A stretch of 64,000 bases of DNA from a virus. This document shows positions 26,878 to 64,000 of the stretch, one piece after another (the stretch's first letter is position 1; each line of letters starts with the position of its first letter). The stretch lies in IMG/VR virus record IMGVR_UViG_3300028920_002946, positions 1 through 64,000 of that record; one strand, given 5' to 3'. The notes under the pieces were generated by a model. That model was not told where the DNA came from. It made no database searches and worked only from the letters and a program-made list of their open reading frames with translations. The position numbers and the translations under genes are program-made.

Positions 26878-26890
26878 ATTAATAGGCTAT
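26878..26890 (-). promoter_or_regulatory. Putative late-promoter motif variant ATAGCCTATTAAT
   Basis: One mismatch; abuts the upstream stop; 36 nt before the gp25-like ATG. Confidence 0.55.
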
Positions 26891-54479: not shown

Positions 54480-57428
54480 CTAGATCGAAGTGCTCATGTT
54501 GAGTGTGACAAGTATCCAATCAAGCTCCGGCACCGGCGAGTAGTAAGCCTCGACGTCCACCGTGCTTATGTCCGTTGCATTCGGCGTGACCTTGATCCCC
54601 TTGTACTCGACGATCAGCTCCGACTGCTTCAATGACTTGAAGTACGCACCCACCGTGTCCTTGATCTGCGGCAGGATCCTCGGCAGGTTCTTCGAGCCGA
54701 TGTACCTGCGCAGCACCCTGCGGAGGCCCTGCTGCACGAAGTGCTTGACCTCGACGATGCGCGGGTTCCTGGTGAGCTGGTTGCTGAGGTCCGTCGTCAG
54801 GTAGAACATGATGTCGATGACGGGGTTCCTCTCCTCCAGGACCGTGCAGCCCGCCTGCGCCACCTGCGCCGCCGTGACGTTGTCGAGCCTGCGGTACAGC
54901 CTCGTGAAGCCCGTCACGCTCTGCCCGGTGAGGGGCGTCGCGATGTCGTAGGCCGGCGAGACGTCCAGGCCCGCGACCGCCGCGGCCACGATCGACCCGT
55001 CCATGAGGTACTCGACGTCGTTGCCGTACACGTCCGTGATGGTGTACACCGCCGCGTCCGGATAGACCGCCGTGACCTTCTCGGTCTTCAGATTCTTCAC
55101 GCTGGAGATGACCGTGTCGGGATCCGTGCCGATCTCGAAGCCGATGATGCTCGTGCGCTCGTTGCGGTAGCGCTTGCTCGACTGGATCGCGTTCGATGTC
55201 TTCAGATACGAATGGATCTCCGAATCGGTGCTCAACGGCTGGATGAGCGCGGGCCTGAGGCCGTTGGCCAGAGGCTCGTTGAACTCGTCGATTCCGTCGA
55301 TGTAGTCCTGGACGCTCGCGTCCGTGCCGCCCGACACCTTCTGGATCTGCTTCACCGCTATGGCCCGGGCGCCGTTCTTGAACGCCAAGTCGCACGCGAC
55401 GGTGACTCGGTTGTTGACGTCGTAGGGGCCGTACAGCTTCTGCACCTGGCCCATGTCCGTGACGTACTTCACCGTGAAGTCGATCTTGTTCTTGTCGAAC
55501 GTGACGTAGTAGATGTCGCCCACGTCCGGCTCGTTGCCGGACTTGTTGTAGGTGTAGATGAGCACCGTGTCGTCAGTGTTGTCCTCGGCGCCGCCGTCTG
55601 TCGTCAAAACCGTGAGATTGACTCCCGGGATGACGCGCACGATGTTCGTGTTGGCGGTGATGTAGTACTTCGCCGGACTGGTCGCCGAGGTCGGGTCGCC
55701 CACGTAGTAGTAGACGTAGGTGCCCACGCCGGGCGCGAACCCGGTGTCGGCGAACGCCACCCTGAACCCGGTCGCCGGGTCGATGTAGGTCTTCCCGAGG
55801 TAGCCCTTGTTCTGGTTGTAGGTCGTGACCGAGCCGGTCTTCCCGTCCGTCGTGAAGGCGGGGCCGACCTTCGAACTGACCGTGAAGCCGCCCACGCCGT
55901 CGAAGGTGACCTTCACCCTCTCGACCTGCGCGAGGAGCGGGTCGACTTCGGTGTTGACCGCGCCCGCGCCCGCGTAAACCGGGGTCACCGTGCCGCCGGC
56001 GGCCTGCTGCACATCCAAGGCCCACCCGTTGAGGTTGGATTGGATCGTGTACTTGCCGACCGTGGCCGCCCCCGGGACCCTGTTCGTCAGAGTCCAGGTG
56101 TCGTCGCGGAGGTTGTTCTCGTGGTACGTGACGTAGACCTTCTCCTCCATCGCCTCCGAGGGGGCCGTCGCCAGCGTGATGGTCTGCCCGCTGATGCTCA
56201 GGACGGGCACAGCGCCGGCCGTCTTGGCGGCTGACCATGTGGCGCCCACGTAGGCGATGATGTCGTCGGGGTCCTCGGTCGCTTTCCCGGTATCGTCTCC
56301 GTTAACCGGCGCGCTCGGCAACGTGAATTCCTTGTTTGTGCCGGAGTTGATCTTGTTGCCGTTCGCGTCGTAGACCGGGTTGCCGGATCCGTCCGTCTTG
56401 TAGACGACCGGGGCGGCCACGCGGCCGTAAACGTATGTGTCGACAATCGACATGAACACATTGTCGTTGAGCGCATCGGATCCCACCGTGTAAACGCCCG
56501 CCTCCTGGCTGTAGGAGTTGCCCCAGTGGATGGCGGGGGAACCCGTGGCCGGGTCGGTGCTGAGCACGCAGTCGTTGCCGATGGAGTAGTCGTTCGTGTC
56601 CTGGCTCAGGCCGGCCTTGATCAGCCTGTTCACCTGCGCGGCGGGGAGCACGTCGAACGTGTCCTGCCAGGTGTTGGTGAAGTACCAGACGCGGACATCG
56701 TCATCGGTATCAGGGGCGGTTTCGAGCGCGAACATGCCGTCCGACCCGTCCAGGTCGGTGATGGTCGCCTCGATGTCGTTGACCGTGACCTTGATGATCT
56801 GGACGGTCGCCTCGACCTCGTCGCCCGGCGAGCCCGGGGTCGGGTCGTAAAGGATGACGACTGTCTTGCCGATGTCGGTGTCGGTCGCGGCGCGGCCGTC
56901 GTTGTCGCCCTTGACGATCCTGGCGTTCTTCACCTTGAACGACGTGTTGCTCCCGTCAGCCTGGTCGGAGAGATCCTCGTCCTCGACGTAGGTGTCGCGG
57001 CGCTTCATCCAGTAGTTCGCGCGCACGTCCGCCCCAGTCGGGGGTATCCTCTGCAGGGTGACCTCGCCGGTCAGCCCGTCGACCGAGTTGACCGCGACGG
57101 GCACGCTGTCGACGGTCACGATGACCGCCCGGGGGTCGTCGGAGACCGTGCCGGATCCGTCGCCGGTCACGATCGGGAAGTATTCGACGTTGAAGTTCTT
57201 GTTGGTCCCCGTGAACTTCGCCGATTCGTCCTCTTCGAGAATCAGATTGTCGGCGATCGCCGAAGATCCGCGCGGCACCTCGAAGTTGGAGATCCTCGTC
57301 TCCTCGGAGGATGTCCCGATGATAGCGGGGATCCTCACGTCACCGGCCGCGGTGACTCCCGGCGCCTCTAGCCTTGTCTCCACGATCACAGACGGGAAGA
57401 CAAAAACTTCAAGTGGTCCTATGGCCAT
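54480..57428 (-). CDS. Contractile tail sheath protein with Ig-like insertion domains
   Basis: 982 aa; N-terminal VFPSVIVET...IPAIIG; C-terminal sheath motifs (AAAVAG, LTGQSVTGF, GCTVLE, VEAYYSPVPELDWILVT). Confidence 0.9.
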   Translation of the reverse strand: MAIGPLEVFVFPSVIVETRLEAPGVTAAGDVRIPAIIGTSSEETRISNFEVPRGSSAIADNLILEEDESAKFTGTNKNFNVEYFPIVTGDGSGTVSDDPRAVIVTVDSVPVAVNSVDGLTGEVTLQRIPPTGADVRANYWMKRRDTYVEDEDLSDQADGSNTSFKVKNARIVKGDNDGRAATDTDIGKTVVILYDPTPGSPGDEVEATVQIIKVTVNDIEATITDLDGSDGMFALETAPDTDDDVRVWYFTNTWQDTFDVLPAAQVNRLIKAGLSQDTNDYSIGNDCVLSTDPATGSPAIHWGNSYSQEAGVYTVGSDALNDNVFMSIVDTYVYGRVAAPVVYKTDGSGNPVYDANGNKINSGTNKEFTLPSAPVNGDDTGKATEDPDDIIAYVGATWSAAKTAGAVPVLSISGQTITLATAPSEAMEEKVYVTYHENNLRDDTWTLTNRVPGAATVGKYTIQSNLNGWALDVQQAAGGTVTPVYAGAGAVNTEVDPLLAQVERVKVTFDGVGGFTVSSKVGPAFTTDGKTGSVTTYNQNKGYLGKTYIDPATGFRVAFADTGFAPGVGTYVYYYVGDPTSATSPAKYYITANTNIVRVIPGVNLTVLTTDGGAEDNTDDTVLIYTYNKSGNEPDVGDIYYVTFDKNKIDFTVKYVTDMGQVQKLYGPYDVNNRVTVACDLAFKNGARAIAVKQIQKVSGGTDASVQDYIDGIDEFNEPLANGLRPALIQPLSTDSEIHSYLKTSNAIQSSKRYRNERTSIIGFEIGTDPDTVISSVKNLKTEKVTAVYPDAAVYTITDVYGNDVEYLMDGSIVAAAVAGLDVSPAYDIATPLTGQSVTGFTRLYRRLDNVTAAQVAQAGCTVLEERNPVIDIMFYLTTDLSNQLTRNPRIVEVKHFVQQGLRRVLRRYIGSKNLPRILPQIKDTVGAYFKSLKQSELIVEYKGIKVTPNATDISTVDVEAYYSPVPELDWILVTLNMSTSI

Positions 57429-57538
57429 CTCGCCTTCTCCTTTTTCATTCCTCGCTGGACTCTGCCCTGAAAGCTGTCTTTGTCATGTGATGTCGATGTG
57501 GGACAAGACTGATTTGGGATGTACATTTCATATGGTGC

Positions 57539-57551
57539 ATTAATAGACTAT
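57539..57551 (-). promoter_or_regulatory. Putative late-promoter motif ATAGTCTATTAAT upstream of the sheath gene
   Basis: Exact consensus; intergenic. Confidence 0.6.
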
Positions 57552-57564
57552 TAGCCCAGCCTCT

Positions 57565-58014
57565 TCAGGCTTCGATGGCCCCCGGGCCGTCAAACTGCCC
57601 GAGGCCCTTTCGCTTCCTCTCCGCCCGGTGCTCGGACAACGCCTCGCTGAACTCCCTCCGGATCCCCTTGGACCTCTCGTCCCCCAAGGCCGCCATCGGC
57701 CTCAAGGTGCCGTCCTTGCCCCTCGGGACCTCAATCGGTACGGGCTTCAAACCGGCCCTTCTCTTGCCCTTCCGGCTCTCGAGGTACTCCCAGCGCCTGT
57801 CGGCGTCGGCGCCGATTGCCCTGTCAATCTCCTTGGGTGTCGTCAGGGTCTCGCCCGCGGCAACCTTGGACGCTATGCCGAAGGTCGTCGCCTCCACCCT
57901 CTTGGAGTCGGCCTTGCACTTCGGGCAGGGCCTCTCGTCGTCCCTCCTGTCGTAGGGGACAATCTCCTCGAACTCGTGTCTGCACCCGGCGCAGCGGTAG
58001 ACGTACAAAGGCAT
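57565..58014 (-). CDS. FmdB-family zinc-ribbon protein
   Basis: MPLYVYRCAGCRHEFE...PCPKC; start revised to MPLY (GGGAG upstream). Confidence 0.8.
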   Translation of the reverse strand: MPLYVYRCAGCRHEFEEIVPYDRRDDERPCPKCKADSKRVEATTFGIASKVAAGETLTTPKEIDRAIGADADRRWEYLESRKGKRRAGLKPVPIEVPRGKDGTLRPMAALGDERSKGIRREFSEALSEHRAERKRKGLGQFDGPGAIEA

Positions 58015-58095
58015 GTCGGCTCCCTTTCCATGTGGATTTATATATGTGGCGCACCCGCGCCGATAGACCAAACCTATTAGCAGATTATTCCCGCC

Positions 58096-59547
58096 CTAGA
58101 CATACCGCGGGTAGCCCACTTTGGGGTACTTCACCTCGAACTCCGTCCCCATCGGCGTAAGCTGGAGCTCGAACACGCGGTTATCGGGTGTTACGACGTA
58201 TTTGTTGGTCTTCAAGTACTCGTAGAGATTCTCGTCGAAGTCGAGGATCTCCCACAGGACGGGCACGAACTTCTTCCATTCCGTCATCATCTGCATCGAG
58301 AGGGACTGTATGTAGTGCAGATCGTTGGTGTTCGAGTCATACACGTTCTCGGACTCGCCGGCCTGGTCGAACTCCTCGAGGGTAAGCCCCTCGTCCACGA
58401 GCAGATATCTGCGGTTGTCCCAGATCTCGTTGATGAGGAAGTCGGCCATCTCGGCGGACTCCTCGGGGTGCCGCGAGAACGCGTCGATGTCGAAGTTCAT
58501 GGTGTGGTGGCCGCTGTACACGCTCGCCGACACCTGCCTCTCGGGGTAGACTATGACCACGACCTTGTCGCCCACCTCGATCTGGCTGTTGAAGCACAGG
58601 ACGGCGCCGGGTATGCTGGTGTCGTCGTAATGGAGGGGGTCGGGTATCGGGAAAGGCCCCGTGGAGGCCCCCACGTACCTGTAATCGGCGTACAACGTGT
58701 ACTTCACGGGCAGCGGCTCCAAGAACGTGATCAAGCCGCTCTCCGTGACCGTGTAGTCCGTGCCCCTCTCGAGGTATATCTTGTCGTCCAACCGCCCCTT
58801 GGTGATGTACAGCTTGTCGAAGTCCCCGAAAAGGCCCCCGTGATCGAGCTGGGCGGTCATCTCAAGGCCCGTCGTGGACTCTATGACCTCCTCCTTGAGC
58901 ACCTGCAGGAGCCTGTCGACCATGAAGTGCGTGCCGGCCCCCGTGGAGCCGGGGTCGACTATCTGGATGTAATACCGCCCCGGGGGGCTCATGATGCCGC
59001 GGTAGTAGGACACCGTGAGCGTGTCGCCGACGACAGGCGGCGTGTCGAGCACTATCATCCCCCTGGAGCCGTCGAGGTAGTCCGCATGCACGACATCGCC
59101 GTTCAGGAGCAGGTCGACTTGGCGGAAGTTGTCCGCCACCGTGTCGTTGTTCCAGCCGGCGAGGATGGGCTTGTGCTGGGTGTAGAAGAACCTGTTCGTG
59201 CCGTGCGTGGGCGTCCCGGTTATCTGCGCCGAAAGATCCTCGTCCTCGACCCGCTCGCTCGTCTTCTCGCGGTTCTCCCACACCCACTGCATGAATTTGC
59301 CGCCGTAGTTCCCCGCCCGCGCGAGGGCCACGTAGCTCTTCATGGTGAAGGCGAAGTCGTCGGGGGACAGCTTGATGCGCGACGTTGTGGCGTTGCGCAG
59401 GACGATGCCGCGCTCCGGCCTCTCGGTGTACGGGAACTTGTGGTACACCTCCGTGCCCCGGTAGTTGACGTGCTCGTTGATGGCGCTGCGCAGCTCGTAC
59501 ATGACGCGGCGCTTAACGGCCGTCAGCAGGTTCACATCCATCATCAT
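58096..59547 (-). CDS. Tail completion/terminator-like protein with inserted Ig-like domains
   Basis: 483 aa; position between neck and sheath genes; contains the Ig-like module also seen in the sheath. Confidence 0.5.
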   Translation of the reverse strand: MMMDVNLLTAVKRRVMYELRSAINEHVNYRGTEVYHKFPYTERPERGIVLRNATTSRIKLSPDDFAFTMKSYVALARAGNYGGKFMQWVWENREKTSERVEDEDLSAQITGTPTHGTNRFFYTQHKPILAGWNNDTVADNFRQVDLLLNGDVVHADYLDGSRGMIVLDTPPVVGDTLTVSYYRGIMSPPGRYYIQIVDPGSTGAGTHFMVDRLLQVLKEEVIESTTGLEMTAQLDHGGLFGDFDKLYITKGRLDDKIYLERGTDYTVTESGLITFLEPLPVKYTLYADYRYVGASTGPFPIPDPLHYDDTSIPGAVLCFNSQIEVGDKVVVIVYPERQVSASVYSGHHTMNFDIDAFSRHPEESAEMADFLINEIWDNRRYLLVDEGLTLEEFDQAGESENVYDSNTNDLHYIQSLSMQMMTEWKKFVPVLWEILDFDENLYEYLKTNKYVVTPDNRVFELQLTPMGTEFEVKYPKVGYPRYV

Positions 59548-59591
59548 GGCGCCGCGCCTTCCCTGGCATGGGTTTACGATAGGGTCTGGGG

Positions 59592-59604
59592 ATTAACAGA
59601 GAAT
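59592..59604 (-). promoter_or_regulatory. Degenerate copy of the late-promoter motif (ATTCTCTGTTAAT)
   Basis: Partial match, same orientation, about 45 nt upstream of 59547. Confidence 0.35.
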
Positions 59605-59615
59605 TACGGGACGAA

Positions 59616-59640
59616 GCGGGGCGCGGGTACTGCGCCCCGC
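59616..59640. terminator. GC-rich hairpin (9-bp perfect stem) after the Nudix gene
   Basis: gcggggcgc-gggtact-gcgccccgc; weak U-tract. Confidence 0.45.
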
Positions 59641-59710
59641 GCCCCTTGTGCCCGGTGAAAGGAGTAAGTCCGGGCGTATGGGCCCCCAGCGGAGGGGAGG
59701 CCCGAAAAAC

Positions 59711-60247
59711 CTATCCAAGCACGAGCCTCATGAACAGCATCGGCAGGAGCGGATCCTCGGCCTTGGCGACCTCGGACGGCTTGACCCACACGCACCTGGC
59801 CAAGGACTCCAAGTGGGACCCGTCGCCCTCGGCCTCGACCTCCTCGGCCTTGGCCGCGTCCACCGCGAAGAGATGGTACACCGTGTCCACGGATTTGGTG
59901 CCCCGGCAGGTCCCCAGCTTTCTCAGGGCCCCGGCGGGGGCCTTGAGGCCGCCCTCCTCGCGCAATTCCATGACGGCCGTCCCCAAGATGTCCTGCTTGC
60001 CGCCCTTCTTCTCGACGCCCCCGGTGATGGAACTCATTGCCTCGTCCATGCCCCAGCATGGGGTGACCTCCATCCTGACCATCACCTCGACGAGGTTGCC
60101 CCCCGGATCGACCCTGTAGGGCATTATGGACACTATGTCGCCATCGCAGCGCTTTTCATGAAGGTAGGAATACCCGTTCACGCCCTTCTCGGGTAGCACC
60201 AATTCCCGTAGTTCCACCCAATCGTTGCCGTATAGCTTCCGTATCAT
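59711..60247 (-). CDS. Nudix hydrolase
   Basis: GGVEK...TAVMELREEGGL Nudix-box variant; start revised to MIRKLYG. Confidence 0.8.
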   Translation of the reverse strand: MIRKLYGNDWVELRELVLPEKGVNGYSYLHEKRCDGDIVSIMPYRVDPGGNLVEVMVRMEVTPCWGMDEAMSSITGGVEKKGGKQDILGTAVMELREEGGLKAPAGALRKLGTCRGTKSVDTVYHLFAVDAAKAEEVEAEGDGSHLESLARCVWVKPSEVAKAEDPLLPMLFMRLVLG

Positions 60248-60257
60248 GGACACCCCT

Positions 60258-61262
60258 CTATTCATTCATGGCGGCTATGAGCAACCCCTTCGCCACGTCG
60301 TTGAGCGGGTCCTTCGCCATGCGTATCTCACTGATTTCTATGGGGAAGGAGGCCCTGTCATGCTCGAACTCCCTCTTGAAGAACTCGAGGAAGTTTCGGG
60401 CGAGGGCCGTGCCGCCGCTGATGACCCACGGTATCGGGTCGGTCAGCTCGATCGAGCCGCTGTCCTTCTTGAACTCCCTCTTGATGGCGTCGATGACATG
60501 GTGTATCAGGTTGCGGTAGTACACCACGATGGCCTCGCGCTCGCGGACGTTCTTGGGGTCGCCCGCCCCGGGGTCGAGGAGGTCGACGCCCTTCTCCTTG
60601 ATCGACATGATGCGCGTGGCGGTCGTCCCGACGGCTTTGGCGGCGCTCCCGTCGATCCAGTCGCCCGATTCGGAGAGGCTGAAGCTCATGCCCACCATGG
60701 TGCGGTAGACCAAAGAGGTGTTCACCATGCCGGCGCCGAAGCTGCTCGCCAGGGCCGTGAAGCCCTCCGGGGCGCAGTTCGAGTAGACGATGGCGGCCGC
60801 CTCGTTCATCGATGTGGCCTTGTACCCCAGGGACTCGATGATCTTCTTGAACATGGCCTCGTGGTAGATGACATCCATGTCCCTGTCGATCGCCTTCGCC
60901 GGGATCGAGTAGAACACCTTCTCGTCGTCCACGGAGGGGTCCTTCAAGATGGTCCGCAGGAGGATGACGAGCATCTTCTCCGCGTCCCGCTCCCCGGCCG
61001 ACATGACCCCCTTGCTCAAGGGGCGCCGGGCCTCGCGCTTGAGGAGGTTGGCCACGCTCATCGCCGGCTCGCCCACGATGTAGACGGTGTCCCCCTCCTG
61101 CACGTAGTTCACGTTCGACATCTTGAGCATGTTCAGGGTGGAGGCCTCCGCCTCTATGTCCAGGAAGGCGTCCCTCACCGACTCCACATGCACATCCGAC
61201 TGGTCGGACCCCCTCGAGGCGCAAGCCAAAAAGCAGGTACCGCAATCCAATCCGCGTGCCAT
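60258..61262 (-). CDS. Actin-like ATPase (MreB/MamK-like)
   Basis: Phosphate-1 GLDCGT, RRPLSKGV, connect-1 NEAAA, phosphate-2 variant SFGAG, SGDWID, adenosine ISGGT, connect-2 DPLNDVAKG. Confidence 0.85.
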   Translation of the reverse strand: MARGLDCGTCFLACASRGSDQSDVHVESVRDAFLDIEAEASTLNMLKMSNVNYVQEGDTVYIVGEPAMSVANLLKREARRPLSKGVMSAGERDAEKMLVILLRTILKDPSVDDEKVFYSIPAKAIDRDMDVIYHEAMFKKIIESLGYKATSMNEAAAIVYSNCAPEGFTALASSFGAGMVNTSLVYRTMVGMSFSLSESGDWIDGSAAKAVGTTATRIMSIKEKGVDLLDPGAGDPKNVREREAIVVYYRNLIHHVIDAIKREFKKDSGSIELTDPIPWVISGGTALARNFLEFFKREFEHDRASFPIEISEIRMAKDPLNDVAKGLLIAAMNE

Positions 61263-61276
61263 AACAATCTCCTTTC

Positions 61277-61963
61277 CTACGACTTACCCTTTTTCAGATC
61301 CTTCAAGGCCTTGAGGCTGTCGTCTATGTCGCTTCCGCCCTGCACCGTTCGCACATCGAGCTTGATGTGGGTGTTGGCGTCCTCGACGGAGACGGTCGGC
61401 ACGTAGACCTCCTCGGGCCTGGTCGGCCCCCCCGAACCTGATTCCCGGCCGTCCCCCGCCCGATCCAATATACTTTCCAAACGGTCGAGAATCGCAGTAT
61501 CCTTGGTGGAGGACTCCACCTTCTCGGCCAACTGCCTGAGGGACTCCTGCAGCGAGTCGCTCGCCCCCGATCCTGAAAGGCCCGATATCCTCTCCTCGAG
61601 CCTGCCTATGCGCTCCAGGAGGGCGTCCACGACACCCTGGTCGGTCTTGGGGCCGGACGACTCCCGCAGGGACGACTCCAGGGCCGTCATCCTCTCGAGG
61701 ACGAGGTCAAGCTTCGAGGTGTCCTGCGCCCGCCGCCGCGGGGCCGTCGACGTGGCGGGCAAATCGATCTCCCCGTCGATGTCGCCATACCGCTGAAGGA
61801 CGGTGATCCTGCCGGCCTTCTCGGCCCTCTTGAGGTCGTTCGACCTCGCGTACTGCGCGTTGGAGTAAATCTTCTGCTGCTTGTAATAAATCACGTCCCC
61901 GAGGTCGCTGACCTCCACCTTGTTCGGGTCGTTTCCTATTACAAGAATCATCCTGGCGGGCAT
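61277..61963 (-). CDS. Coiled-coil protein, candidate actin adaptor
   Basis: 228 aa; several heptad segments (LDLVLERMTALE, LLERIGRLEERI, LRQLAEKVE). Confidence 0.6.
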   Translation of the reverse strand: MPARMILVIGNDPNKVEVSDLGDVIYYKQQKIYSNAQYARSNDLKRAEKAGRITVLQRYGDIDGEIDLPATSTAPRRRAQDTSKLDLVLERMTALESSLRESSGPKTDQGVVDALLERIGRLEERISGLSGSGASDSLQESLRQLAEKVESSTKDTAILDRLESILDRAGDGRESGSGGPTRPEEVYVPTVSVEDANTHIKLDVRTVQGGSDIDDSLKALKDLKKGKS

Positions 61964-62030
61964 CTTATCTGTTGCGCGCGCCCCGGAGGGCGGGCGTCAT
62001 GTCTATATGGGCGGAGGATCCCGCGGCCGC

Positions 62031-62753
62031 CTACAGGTACTTCTTGGCGAGGTCGTCGATGTCTGCGCTCGCCTTCTTCGGGAACTCGAACTTCGGCGTC
62101 TGATCCTTCGGGAGGCTCGGCTTGCCGTCGTCGGGCTTGTCCTTCTTCTTGGGCTTCTTCTTCGGTTCCTCAACCTCCCCTTCGGCCTCCTCCGAAACCT
62201 CCTCCGAAACCTCCTCCGGGGCTTCCTCGTCCCCGTCGCCCGGCGCGGATTCGTCCTCCTCCCCGTCGCCCTCGTAATCGAGGTTGATCTCCTCCTCCTC
62301 GTCCGGCTCGGCCATCTCCTCCTTCTGCTCGTCGACGGGCTTGAAGATTTCCCCCCCGGAGTCGTCCTCGTCGCCCTCAGGCTTCTTCTTCGGCGGCTTC
62401 GGCACACCCTGCCCCTCGGGGGCCGGGACCGGTGTCTCCTCGACTGCCCCGGCCGGGACGGCCAGCGGGTCGTCGCCCTCGGCGGCCTCCACGTAGAACC
62501 GCTCGCTCATTTCCGTCGGCACGTACCTCATGTCGCCCTGGCAGGCCGGGCAGCCGATGACCTCGTTCACCGTGACCGGCTCGACATCCGGGATGCCCTC
62601 TGCCGCGGCGGCCTTGGCGCGCCTCGCGTTGATGGAGGCGAGGCTGGCGGTGTGGTTGCAGGACGCGCAAACGAAGTAGGAACTCTCGGCGGCTTCCTTG
62701 TCGATGGCGTCCGCTATCTCAAGCAGCTTCTGCGCGGCGGTCTTGCGATCCAT
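62031..62753 (-). CDS. Zinc-ribbon protein with a highly acidic tail
   Basis: CASC...CPAC, followed by a D/E-rich tract. Confidence 0.7.
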   Translation of the reverse strand: MDRKTAAQKLLEIADAIDKEAAESSYFVCASCNHTASLASINARRAKAAAAEGIPDVEPVTVNEVIGCPACQGDMRYVPTEMSERFYVEAAEGDDPLAVPAGAVEETPVPAPEGQGVPKPPKKKPEGDEDDSGGEIFKPVDEQKEEMAEPDEEEEINLDYEGDGEEDESAPGDGDEEAPEEVSEEVSEEAEGEVEEPKKKPKKKDKPDDGKPSLPKDQTPKFEFPKKASADIDDLAKKYL

Positions 62754-62815
62754 TTGTCAACTCCCTTGAATCCGTGGGTATATGCCCTGCATATCGATGC
62801 CTGCATGAATAGAAA

Positions 62816-62828
62816 ATTAATAGACATT
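62816..62828 (-). promoter_or_regulatory. Putative late-promoter motif variant AATGTCTATTAAT
   Basis: Core GTCTATTAAT intact; overlaps the upstream stop; heads the 62753-59711 gene run. Confidence 0.55.
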
Positions 62829-64000
62829 AATAAACAATGTTCTCGAACGTTACCGTCCTGCCCTTCAGCTGGTACTGCTCCGGTATCTCCGGCTTGTCCG
62901 GGATGGTCGGGCTGGCGTCGGTCGGCCTGCCCGTCCTGTAGGCGTTCCAGGCCGGCGGCACGCCGTCCTCGCCGCCCGTTATCGGCACCTTGTACCGGAC
63001 ATCGTTGTGGTCCAGCGGCGCCAGGTTGAAGTGCTGCTGGAAAATCGCCCCGCGCGCCCCCTGGGGGTTCACGTGGGCTATCGAGTAGCGGTCGTTGTTC
63101 TGGCGGACCACGAAGTCCCTGTCGTTGATGAGCGGGTACGGCCCCGTCCACGTGGTCCAGTCGTAGTTCACGTGCAGGCCGACGTCCATCAGCTCCACGA
63201 TCTTCTCCGTCTCCGGGGGCGCCACGAGGATGTCGTACGGGCCGTAGTAGCCGCCGACATAGCCCGTGCCGTAGCACCTCAGGCAGCTGGCCCTCCCCGT
63301 GCGGTACTCCTGGTCCCAGCAGGAGCACCTCTGGCCGGCCCAGCGCCGGATGAACAACCTCACCCGCTCGCCGCCCTGCTCGAGGATGAACCTGTTCCTG
63401 CGGATGGACTCGGCCCAAATCCAGTCGATCCGCTCCATGTCGTAGGGGTTCACGGGCACGGTCTCGGCGAGCGGGGTCTCCCTGCCCTCCCCCGTGTCGG
63501 GGTCAACGGCCACCGACGTGACCCGGTAGTAGATCTTGCGGTTGATGTCGGTCTGGATCCAATTGTTGATGTACGTGTACGTGACGCGTATCTCGCCCCC
63601 GCGCGCGAGGTCGGGCAGGATGGGGTCGTCCAATCGGTTCGTCGTGTGGTTGTAGACCTTGTTCTTGATGAGGAATATCTCGCCCGTCTCGCCCATGACC
63701 CTGAACGCCGGCACGACCTGCCAATCGGACGACGAGGTTTCCTTGATCCGGACAATGACGCTGTCGATGCCGTCGGCGACCTTGCCGTTCGTCCCCGGGA
63801 TGACGATGGGCTGGTGGTACGTCTTCACTATCCAGTCGCCCGTGGCGTTCGTCCCGGCGATGAAGCGGCCGCCGGCGACGGGGTCCTCGTCCACCACCTC
63901 GACCTCGCGCGTCTGGTCCCTGTAGAACATGACGCCGACGGGCGTCGCGTTCAGCTTCTCGTAGGGCGCGTCCGGGGCGTCGAACGCGCGGTACACGTTG
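62827..64000 (-). CDS. Neck/head-completion-like protein with a Zn-binding motif, 5' end beyond the window
   Basis: Frame is open to the window edge (..NVYRAFD, FN3-like, so the listed GTG is probably internal); RCSCWD...SCLRCYGTGYVGGY motif. Confidence 0.55.
   Translation of the reverse strand, partial: NVYRAFDAPDAPYEKLNATPVGVMFYRDQTREVEVVDEDPVAGGRFIAGTNATGDWIVKTYHQPIVIPGTNGKVADGIDSVIVRIKETSSSDWQVVPAFRVMGETGEIFLIKNKVYNHTTNRLDDPILPDLARGGEIRVTYTYINNWIQTDINRKIYYRVTSVAVDPDTGEGRETPLAETVPVNPYDMERIDWIWAESIRRNRFILEQGGERVRLFIRRWAGQRCSCWDQEYRTGRASCLRCYGTGYVGGYYGPYDILVAPPETEKIVELMDVGLHVNYDWTTWTGPYPLINDRDFVVRQNNDRYSIAHVNPQGARGAIFQQHFNLAPLDHNDVRYKVPITGGEDGVPPAWNAYRTGRPTDASPTIPDKPEIPEQYQLKGRTVTFENIVY

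What the first reader, a model, noticed from the sequence alone, without database searches (positions are those of the whole stretch)
59711..62828. Putative phage actin cytoskeleton module in the late virion-assembly region (actin + coiled-coil + acidic Zn-ribbon + Nudix)
Seen: an MreB/MamK-like ATPase with all actin-fold motifs (phosphate-2 Asp replaced by Ser: SFGAG; connect-1 Glu kept). It is preceded by a coiled-coil protein and an acidic Zn-ribbon protein. The four-gene run is bracketed by a late-motif copy (62816) and a hairpin (59616), and sits between neck and tail genes. Known: phiKZ-like jumbo phages use tubulin PhuZ to position the phage nucleus and traffic capsids; magnetosome MamK filaments work with the acidic adaptor MamJ; phage actin-like proteins such as AlpC have been linked to DNA transport. 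Inference: a late-expressed actin filament that positions or transports assembling virions or organises a viral factory, an actin counterpart of the PhuZ spindle. No centromere-like repeat array lies nearby, which argues against simple ParMRC partitioning.
Basis: partly seen in the sequence, partly recalled or inferred. Interest (0 to 1): 0.82.

Follow-up and report, generated by a model that had tools for sequence, protein, structure and literature searches.

The report
Huge-phage actin with its docking partner
An uncultured phage of about 465 kb carries, among its late tail genes, a very strongly conserved actin of the "volactin" family together with a coiled-coil partner that also accompanies this actin in planctomycete bacteria, so the phage probably builds its own actin filaments while virions assemble, which no paper I could search describes.

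Summary

- **The actin.** The 334-aa protein (60258-61262, minus strand) is a full-length member of Pfam Volactin (PF25216, 218 bits against a cut-off of 35), not MreB. It is the best-conserved gene of the region in all 14 related viral contigs plus one phage contig binned in a MAG (58-82% identity).
- **The module.** It is smaller than proposed. The coiled-coil protein and the actin are the core, the acidic Zn-ribbon protein is specific to this clade, and the Nudix gene sits in a slot that holds other cargo in relatives.
- **New here.** 112 of 301 sampled Planctomycetota genomes carry cellular volactin-family actins. In the subgroup nearest the phage, a coiled-coil protein lies directly upstream. 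Its two ends resemble those of the phage protein, though the statistical support is modest.
- **Timing.** A conserved promoter-like motif precedes both this operon and the sheath gene.
- **Tubulin.** None was found in a 98%-complete relative.

Filament formation, tail docking and cargo are inferred, not shown. This scan has already found the same kind of module on other DNA (e1-5679355, e1-5359647). I found no published account.

The parts
62816..62833 (-). Promoter-like AT-rich motif (TTATTAATGTCTATTAAT) about 65-80 nt upstream of the Zn-ribbon gene
   Evidence: The related motif TAATAnnCTnTTAATA is kept upstream of both the Zn-ribbon gene and the sheath gene in relatives of very different GC content. 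Promoter function is inferred.
62031..62753 (-). Acidic Zn-ribbon protein (240 aa): N-terminal helix plus CxxC...CxxC ribbon, a long acidic disordered linker, and conserved short motifs ([IL]F.PVD[ED]Q, a Lys-rich patch, C-terminal PKFE...KY)
   Evidence: Present in 13 of 13 clade loci that reach this position. No Pfam or PHROG match. Only 11 relatives found by word search. Absent from LR745208. Its link to the actin rests on adjacency and the shared operon only.
61277..61963 (-). Coiled-coil partner (adaptor), 228 aa; the true start is probably Met5 (61951)
   Evidence: The AF2 model has a folded N-domain at residues 1-60 (pLDDT 81-93), helices at 81-170, a disordered but conserved stretch at 171-209, and a terminal amphipathic helix at 213-226. 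Both ends are conserved in all relatives. Both ends also align with the coiled-coil protein encoded upstream of Planctomycetota volactin-type actins.
60258..61262 (-). Volactin-family actin (334 aa)
   Evidence: PF25216 E = 2.8e-64, covering 1-321 of 321 profile positions. AF2 pLDDT 88. Best structural matches are BeeR (Z 25.7), MreB (Z 23.9), crenactin (Z 22.9) and the MamK filament (TM 0.72). 58-82% identical across relatives.
59711..60265 (-). Nudix-fold protein (184 aa), an accessory gene in a variable slot and not part of the conserved module
   Evidence: Marginal Pfam NUDIX match. Found only in L002 among relatives. Other relatives hold DUF4379/DUF723 treble-clef proteins or nothing at this place.
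59618..59645 (-). GC-rich hairpin after the Nudix stop codon, a possible operon end
   Evidence: -33 kcal/mol, z = -3.2. No U-tract follows, so terminator function is inferred.
62827..63996 (-). Upstream flank: conserved 389-aa virion-type protein with a CxC...CxxC knuckle
   Evidence: Weak PHROG 'virion structural protein' matches. Syntenic in all relatives and in LR745208.
54480..59547 (-). Downstream flank: conserved 483-aa protein, Zn_ribbon_8 protein, a second copy of the motif (57539-57546) and the tail sheath

Best explanation
This is a phage cytoskeletal cassette expressed late in infection.

1. The actin is a volactin-family ATPase that probably polymerises into dynamic filaments.
2. 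The coiled-coil protein upstream is probably its adaptor. It would dimerise through its helices and hold the filament with its conserved C-terminal stretch and helix, while its small N-terminal domain holds a cargo or an anchor.
3. The pair is probably an old two-gene unit shared with Planctomycetota cells.
4. The acidic Zn-ribbon protein is a clade-specific third component, perhaps a regulator or a second tether.
5. Because the operon sits between virion genes and shares its promoter-like motif with the sheath gene, the filaments most likely organise space in the infected cell while heads and tails are made.

What is shown: family membership, the fold, very strong conservation, synteny, and the shared motif. 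What is inferred: polymerisation, tail-to-actin docking, late timing, and the cargo.
For: - Family and fold: PF25216 at 218 bits over its full length. The named member, volactin, forms dynamic filaments in vivo (PMC10869688). All nucleotide-binding motifs are intact. The best structural matches are filament formers.
- Constraint: the actin is the most conserved gene of the region in every relative, with 120 listed clusters at 61-100% identity.
- Inteins: a Cys1...HN|Cys+1 intein with a LAGLIDADG domain sits exactly inside the phosphate-2 loop in L015/P0121.
- Pairing: the partner and the actin co-occur in all 14 clade loci that reach that position and in LR745208.
- Cellular counterpart: all 11 examined Planctomycetota subgroup-1 loci with enough flank have a coiled-coil protein directly upstream.
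- Matching ends: the cellular partner's N-terminal (VSLKDL..KGFKQVKV) and C-terminal (VE.N...V.VK....GV...L.KLK.L) segments align with the phage partner. hhalign over the whole proteins (global mode) gave E = 3.9e-5. The C-terminal score was 21.8 against 8.0 +/- 2.0 for shuffles. The N-terminal score was 17.9 against 9.8 +/- 1.9.
- Timing: the promoter-like motif is shared with the sheath gene and conserved across relatives.
- Tubulin: PF00091 and PF13809 were not found in the 466,729-bp, 98%-complete relative.
Against: - No experiment exists for any phage member.
- The phosphate-2 Asp is a Ser, so ATPase chemistry may differ, although this is family-wide.
- Structure alone does not exclude a chaperone-like ATPase: the BiP nucleotide-binding domain scores Z 21.7 against 25.7 for BeeR.
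- Homology between the phage and cellular partners is only moderately supported: HH probability 17-43%, and hmmsearch E = 2e-4 to 0.3.
- I could not run a multimer prediction, and I found no natural partner-actin fusion to stand in for one.
- Some relatives have extra genes between the partner and the actin.
- The N-domain of the partner has no confident fold match, so the cargo is unknown.
- The hairpin lacks a U-tract.
Confidence: 0.6

Rival explanations
1. Host-system mimic. The phage copy of the host's own volactin-plus-partner pair replaces, sustains or hijacks whatever that pair does in the cell (cell architecture, membrane or DNA positioning). It would not act on virions.
For: Both the actin (38-42% identity) and the partner's two ends resemble the Planctomycetota cellular pair. 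The family is in 112 of 301 sampled Planctomycetota genomes. If the N-domains are homologous, the two partners could bind the same host target.
Against: The host is unknown. In the tree the phage sequences form their own well-supported clade and are not nested in the cellular one. The fixed position between virion genes over deep divergence (sheath about 34% identical in LR745208) and the sheath-type motif fit a virion-stage role better.
Confidence: 0.18
2. ParMRC-like partition system that segregates the phage genome as a plasmid-like or pseudolysogenic element.
For: Volactin dynamics resemble those of ParM (PMC10869688). The architecture is adaptor plus actin. Some cellular paralogues are fused to a ParB-type HTH, a weak match in L019. 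IMG/VR labels the record 'provirus'.
Against: No iterated centromere-like repeats nearby. No DNA-binding domain detected in the partner. The cassette is embedded in virion genes behind a motif shared with the sheath gene. In my judgement, the 'provirus' label on a 183-kb piece of a 464-kb contig is most likely a trimming artefact.
Confidence: 0.1
3. Non-polymerising actin-fold ATPase that works as an assembly chaperone for head-tail joining or tail assembly, in the way Hsp70 homologues serve closterovirus virions.
For: The gene sits in the virion module. Hsp70 nucleotide-binding domains are structurally close (BiP Z 21.7). Viral Hsp70s top the viral fold library.
Against: There is no substrate-binding domain. 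Membership is in a family whose studied member polymerises. The top structural matches are polymers. The same pair occurs in cells that make no virions.
Confidence: 0.07

Closest known systems
Volactin (VolA, HVO_2015) of Haloferax volcanii; Pfam PF25216 (PMC10869688)
   Same: Same Pfam family, matched over its full length and far above the cut-off. The actin-fold motifs are intact. The H. volcanii control genome is the only one of 14 controls over the cut-off.
   Different: This one is viral and probably late-expressed. Its partner is a soluble coiled-coil protein, not the 4-TM CdpA-like neighbour HVO_2016 (PMC12126565). I could not align it with HVO_2015 itself because no reference sequence was on hand.
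Cellular volactin-type actin plus upstream coiled-coil protein of Planctomycetota (uncharacterised; loci L017-L019, L025, L030, L031, L045-L048)
   Same: Same gene order. The actin is 38-42% identical. The partner has the same layout: a small N-domain, a coiled coil, and a C-terminal VE.N...LK.LK tail.
   Different: Chromosomal context: NFACT, a sigma-54 regulator and a GTPase as neighbours. Longer coiled coils. No Zn-ribbon protein. The sequences form a separate clade in the tree.
AlpC/AlpA of the Corynebacterium glutamicum prophage CGP3 (PMC4446434, PMC5539076)
   Same: A phage-encoded actin-like protein with an adaptor.
   Different: AlpA binds DNA sites (alpS) and AlpC serves viral DNA transport and replication. 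Here no DNA-binding domain or repeat sites were found, the actin family is different, and the setting is a late structural operon.
PhuZ tubulin spindle of nucleus-forming jumbo phages (PMC4244570, PMC8314001)
   Same: A phage-encoded cytoskeletal polymer in a very large phage.
   Different: A tubulin fold, not an actin fold. No tubulin gene was found in this clade's near-complete genome. There is no evidence here for a phage nucleus.
MamK, MreB and BeeR filaments (PDB 5ljv, 4cze, 8r2n)
   Same: The best structural matches: TM 0.72 and Z 20-25.7.
   Different: 15-17% identity. MreB Pfam score is below the cut-off. phmmer against PDB sequences found nothing at E <= 1.

Membership tests
Volactin family (Pfam PF25216) | Score above the curated gathering cut-off over the whole profile | tested here: met
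   218.1 bits against 35, profile positions 1-321 of 321. 217.6 bits on the genome search.
Volactin family (Pfam PF25216) | Intact actin-fold nucleotide motifs, including the family's Ser in phosphate-2 | tested here: met
   D6, G8, T9, E154, S174, G176, G178, N181, G283, G284 and G326 are conserved. All but T9, which is kept in at least 90% of them, are invariant across 38 representatives at 31-54% identity. The Ser is also kept in Planctomycetota subgroups 1 and 2.
Volactin family (Pfam PF25216) | Forms dynamic filaments in vivo | not testable with these tools
   Shown only for H. volcanii volactin (PMC10869688).
Volactin family (Pfam PF25216) | Adjacent CdpA-like 4-TM membrane protein, as with HVO_2016 | tested here: not met
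   Neither neighbour matched any membrane-protein family. No hydrophobic stretch long enough to span a membrane was evident by eye, but no TM predictor was run. This is a feature of the archaeal locus, not of the protein family.
ParMRC (type II partition) | Centromere of iterated repeats next to the operon | tested here: not met
   Only short chance or coding repeats in 57400-64000.
ParMRC (type II partition) | Adaptor with a ribbon-helix-helix DNA-binding domain | tested here: inconclusive
   No Pfam DNA-binding domain. The N-domain model is strand-rich with no confident match; the best Z is 5.2.
MreB/Mbl (PF06723) | Score above the gathering cut-off | tested here: not met
   16.7 bits against 27, and a partial match only.
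MamK | Sequence-level relationship to MamK | tested here: not met
   phmmer against all PDB sequences gave no hit at E <= 1. Fold similarity only: 17% identity, TM 0.72.
Hsp70-type chaperone | Nucleotide-binding domain followed by a substrate-binding domain | tested here: not met
   The protein ends with the actin fold at residue 334.
PhuZ/TubZ phage tubulin | Tubulin/FtsZ GTPase domain in the genome | tested here: not met
   PF00091 and PF13809 were not found in five records, including the 98%-complete G001.

The most novel reading that the evidence does not exclude
Huge phages of this clade, possibly infecting Planctomycetota, build their own actin filaments late in infection. Through the coiled-coil adaptor and the acidic Zn-ribbon protein, the filaments move or position capsids, tails or an assembly site. 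That would be an actin-based counterpart of the PhuZ tubulin spindle, built from a two-gene cytoskeletal unit shared with the host phylum.
Probability: 0.3. Interest if true: 0.85.

Novelty: new variant of a known kind. Interest (0 to 1): 0.68.

Why it matters
PhuZ tubulin is the well-studied example of a cytoskeleton that a phage builds during lytic infection; AlpC is an actin-like example from a prophage. A very strongly conserved, late-module actin with its own adaptor would be a second, independent way for a phage to organise the infected cell. It is shared by a whole clade of phages of about 465 kb, and by many other large phages according to this scan.

The link to an uncharacterised actin-plus-coiled-coil pair in more than a third of sampled Planctomycetota genomes also gives a testable entry into the cell biology of that phylum and of the volactin family.

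The parts are small and soluble, so polymerisation and tail-docking tests are easy to do.

Tried and rejected
- PHROGs gave nothing for the actin, the partner, the Zn-ribbon protein or Nudix.
- phmmer against PDB sequences gave nothing.
- A genome-collection scan with a diverse alignment failed for lack of a conserved stretch. The scan with the close alignment used only two peptide patterns, so 'closest cellular relatives are Planctomycetota' rests on a narrow search.
- Cluster look-up gave no names.
- I looked for natural partner-actin fusions to stand in for a multimer prediction and found none. The N-terminal extensions are other domains.
- Fold searches with the partner model gave only coiled-coil look-alikes and weak N-domain matches: AS3MT Z 5.2 and the prophage protein YqbF Z 4.7.
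- The ESM Atlas was uninformative for both neighbours.
- The tree did not resolve whether phages or cells were the donor.
- The second Planctomycetota subgroup (30-34% identity) is not phage-linked, because no virion genes lie nearby.
- The idea that Nudix belongs to the module was rejected.
- Reviews and comparative papers on jumbo and huge phages that I searched do not mention actin. The 14 of 17 volactin papers listed show no phage topic in their titles or abstracts.
Full report
**What is there**

The window is the first 64 kb of a 182,677-bp viral record. The actin's exact sequence is on record on one contig of 463,769 bp. GC is about 62% and nearly all long ORFs are on the minus strand.

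The finding covers four minus-strand genes:
- an acidic Zn-ribbon protein (62031-62753)
- a coiled-coil protein (61277-61963)
- an actin-fold protein (60258-61262)
- a Nudix-fold protein (59711-60265), which overlaps the actin stop codon

They lie between a conserved 389-aa virion-type protein on one side and, on the other, a 483-aa protein, a Zn_ribbon_8 protein and the tail sheath.

**The actin**

- Pfam places it in Volactin (PF25216) over the full profile at E = 2.8e-64. MreB is below its cut-off.
- All five actin-fold motifs are present.
- The Ser that replaces the usual phosphate-2 Asp is invariant in 38 family representatives at 31-54% identity. It is also kept in cellular Planctomycetota members. 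It is therefore a family trait.
- An AF2 model (pLDDT 88, pTM 0.86) matches filament-forming actins best. By Foldseek the MamK filament has TM 0.72. By VIA-align, BeeR scores Z 25.7, MreB 23.9 and crenactin 22.9.
- The BiP nucleotide-binding domain scores Z 21.7, so the fold alone does not exclude a chaperone-type ATPase. The tie to a polymer comes from family membership, because volactin forms dynamic filaments in vivo (PMC10869688).

**Conservation and relatives**

- A word-indexed search found 974 relatives. The best 120 clusters are 61-100% identical and all carry PF25216.
- An exhaustive search of cluster representatives found 921 at E <= 1e-3 and 302 at E <= 1e-30.
- In 14 viral contigs, plus one phage contig binned in an 'Altiarchaeales' MAG, the gene order is kept: 389-aa protein, Zn-ribbon, coiled-coil, actin, a variable slot, 483-aa protein, Zn_ribbon_8, sheath.
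- In every one of these loci the actin is the best-conserved gene: 58-82% identity against 42-72% for the sheath.
- Nudix occurs only in the nearest relative, L002. The slot elsewhere holds DUF4379/DUF723 treble-clef proteins, a CBM9 protein or nothing. Some relatives also have an extra gene between the partner and the actin, including a Vsr-like endonuclease.
- The 485-kb phage LR745208 (actin 44.5% identical, sheath about 34%) keeps the 389-aa protein, a 207-aa partner-like protein, the actin, the 483-aa protein, the Zn_ribbon_8 protein and the sheath. It lacks the acidic Zn-ribbon protein. LR756511 carries the actin in a different setting.

**Inteins**

Many family members are about 700 aa. 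P0121 is 72% identical to the window's actin, and L015 carries a very similar 703-codon open frame. P0121 has a Cys1...His-Asn|Cys+1 intein with a LAGLIDADG domain exactly inside the phosphate-2 loop. Others carry HNH-type inteins at nearby sites. From general knowledge, inteins favour essential, conserved sites.

**The partner and its cellular counterpart**

The partner has four parts:
- a well-modelled N-terminal domain, residues 1-60
- four helices, residues 81-170
- a conserved stretch that is disordered in the monomer model (RPEEVYVP.V.VEDANTHIKL.VRT)
- a terminal amphipathic helix (DSLK.LK.LK)

A scan of species genomes with the phage alignment found, apart from the mis-binned phage contig, only three Planctomycetota contigs. 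Their neighbours are ordinary cellular genes.

PF25216 is present in 112 of 301 sampled Planctomycetota genomes. The subgroup nearest the phage is 38-42% identical. In all 11 of its loci with enough flank, a coiled-coil protein lies directly upstream. Both ends of that protein align with the phage partner:

| Comparison | Result |
|---|---|
| hhalign, whole proteins (global mode) | E = 3.9e-5 |
| C-terminal segment | score 21.8 against 8.0 +/- 2.0 for 30 column shuffles |
| N-terminal segment | score 17.9 against 9.8 +/- 1.9 |
| Profile-to-sequence (hmmsearch) | weak, E = 2e-4 to 0.3 |
| HH probability | 17-43% |

I rate homology as probable, not proven.

A second cellular subgroup has a different upstream protein that ends in ADLLSNL. 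This suggests that tail-bearing partners are a general feature of the family.

In a quick maximum-likelihood tree the phage clade and each cellular subgroup are separate, well-supported clades on an unresolved backbone. No donor can be named.

**Timing**

CTATTAAT occurs four times on the minus strand and never on the plus strand. One copy precedes this operon and one precedes the sheath gene. The wider motif TAATAnnCTnTTAATA is kept at both places in relatives of very different base composition. I read it as a shared promoter of the virion-gene class. That is an inference.

**Tubulin**

I found no tubulin-family gene in five records of the clade, including one that is 98% complete.

**Reading**

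The best-supported picture is a late-expressed phage actin with a tail-docking adaptor, inherited as a pair that cells of Planctomycetota also use, plus a clade-specific acidic Zn-ribbon accessory.

Its fixed place among head-tail genes points to a role during virion assembly, but the cargo is unknown. The rivals are a mimic of a host system, a partition system and a chaperone-type ATPase; each is set out in its own section.

I could not run a multimer prediction, so docking of the tail on the actin is untested here.

**Earlier work**

Earlier notes of this scan describe the same kind of module in other huge-phage fragments (e1-5679355, e1-5359647). They also describe variants with a membrane partner.

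I found no paper that describes volactin-type actins in phages.

Noticed in passing
L015:4408-6516 (P0121 is a near-identical protein): A relative's actin gene carries an in-frame LAGLIDADG intein (Cys1...HN|Cys+1) exactly inside the phosphate-2 loop (ASS|intein|CGAGMVNT). Other family members carry HNH-type inteins at nearby sites.
   Followed up: yes
L017, L018, L019, L025, L030, L031, L045-L048 (Planctomycetota genomes): An uncharacterised cellular pair: a long coiled-coil protein with a conserved VE.N...LK.LK tail directly upstream of a volactin-family actin. PF25216 is present in 112 of 301 sampled Planctomycetota genomes.
   Followed up: partly
L035-L044 (Planctomycetota genomes): A second cellular volactin subgroup (30-34% identical to the phage actin). 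Its upstream protein ends in a different conserved tail, (A/V)DLLSNL.
   Followed up: partly
L019:3232-5196; P0158, P0166, P0172, P0174, P0177; P0189: Fusion forms of the family. One type has an N-terminal domain with a weak ParB-HTH match joined to the actin; it lies in tandem with a plain copy in L019. Another is a 1160-aa protein that joins the actin to Wzz/GNVR and a ParA/MinD-type ATPase.
   Followed up: partly
window 62816-62833, 57539-57546, 26878-26885, 2013-2020: A strand-specific AT-rich motif (core CTATTAAT, wider TAATAnnCTnTTAATA) upstream of virion genes. It is conserved upstream of the same genes in relatives of very different GC content, and is probably the phage's late promoter.
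   Followed up: partly
window 59548-60265 and the equivalent slots in L002-L013: The gaps between actin and the 483-aa gene, and between the partner and the actin, are hot spots for optional genes: Nudix, CBM9, multi-repeat treble-clef (DUF4379/DUF723) proteins and a Vsr-like endonuclease.
   Followed up: partly
window 58096-59547 and 54480-57428: The 483-aa protein shares a repeated segment of about 80-100 aa (its residues 77-182) with the N-terminal part of the sheath protein in several relatives.
   Followed up: no
L016 (WJJK01000382.1): A 28.6-kb contig binned in a 'Candidatus Altiarchaeales' MAG carries this phage clade's virion genes and actin module. It is almost certainly a mis-binned phage contig.
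   Followed up: partly
window 61784-61963 (partner residues 1-60): The partner's N-terminal domain weakly resembles the N-domain of the prophage head-region proteins YqbF (2hjq, Z 4.7) and HI1506 (2out). This is too weak to use.
   Followed up: no
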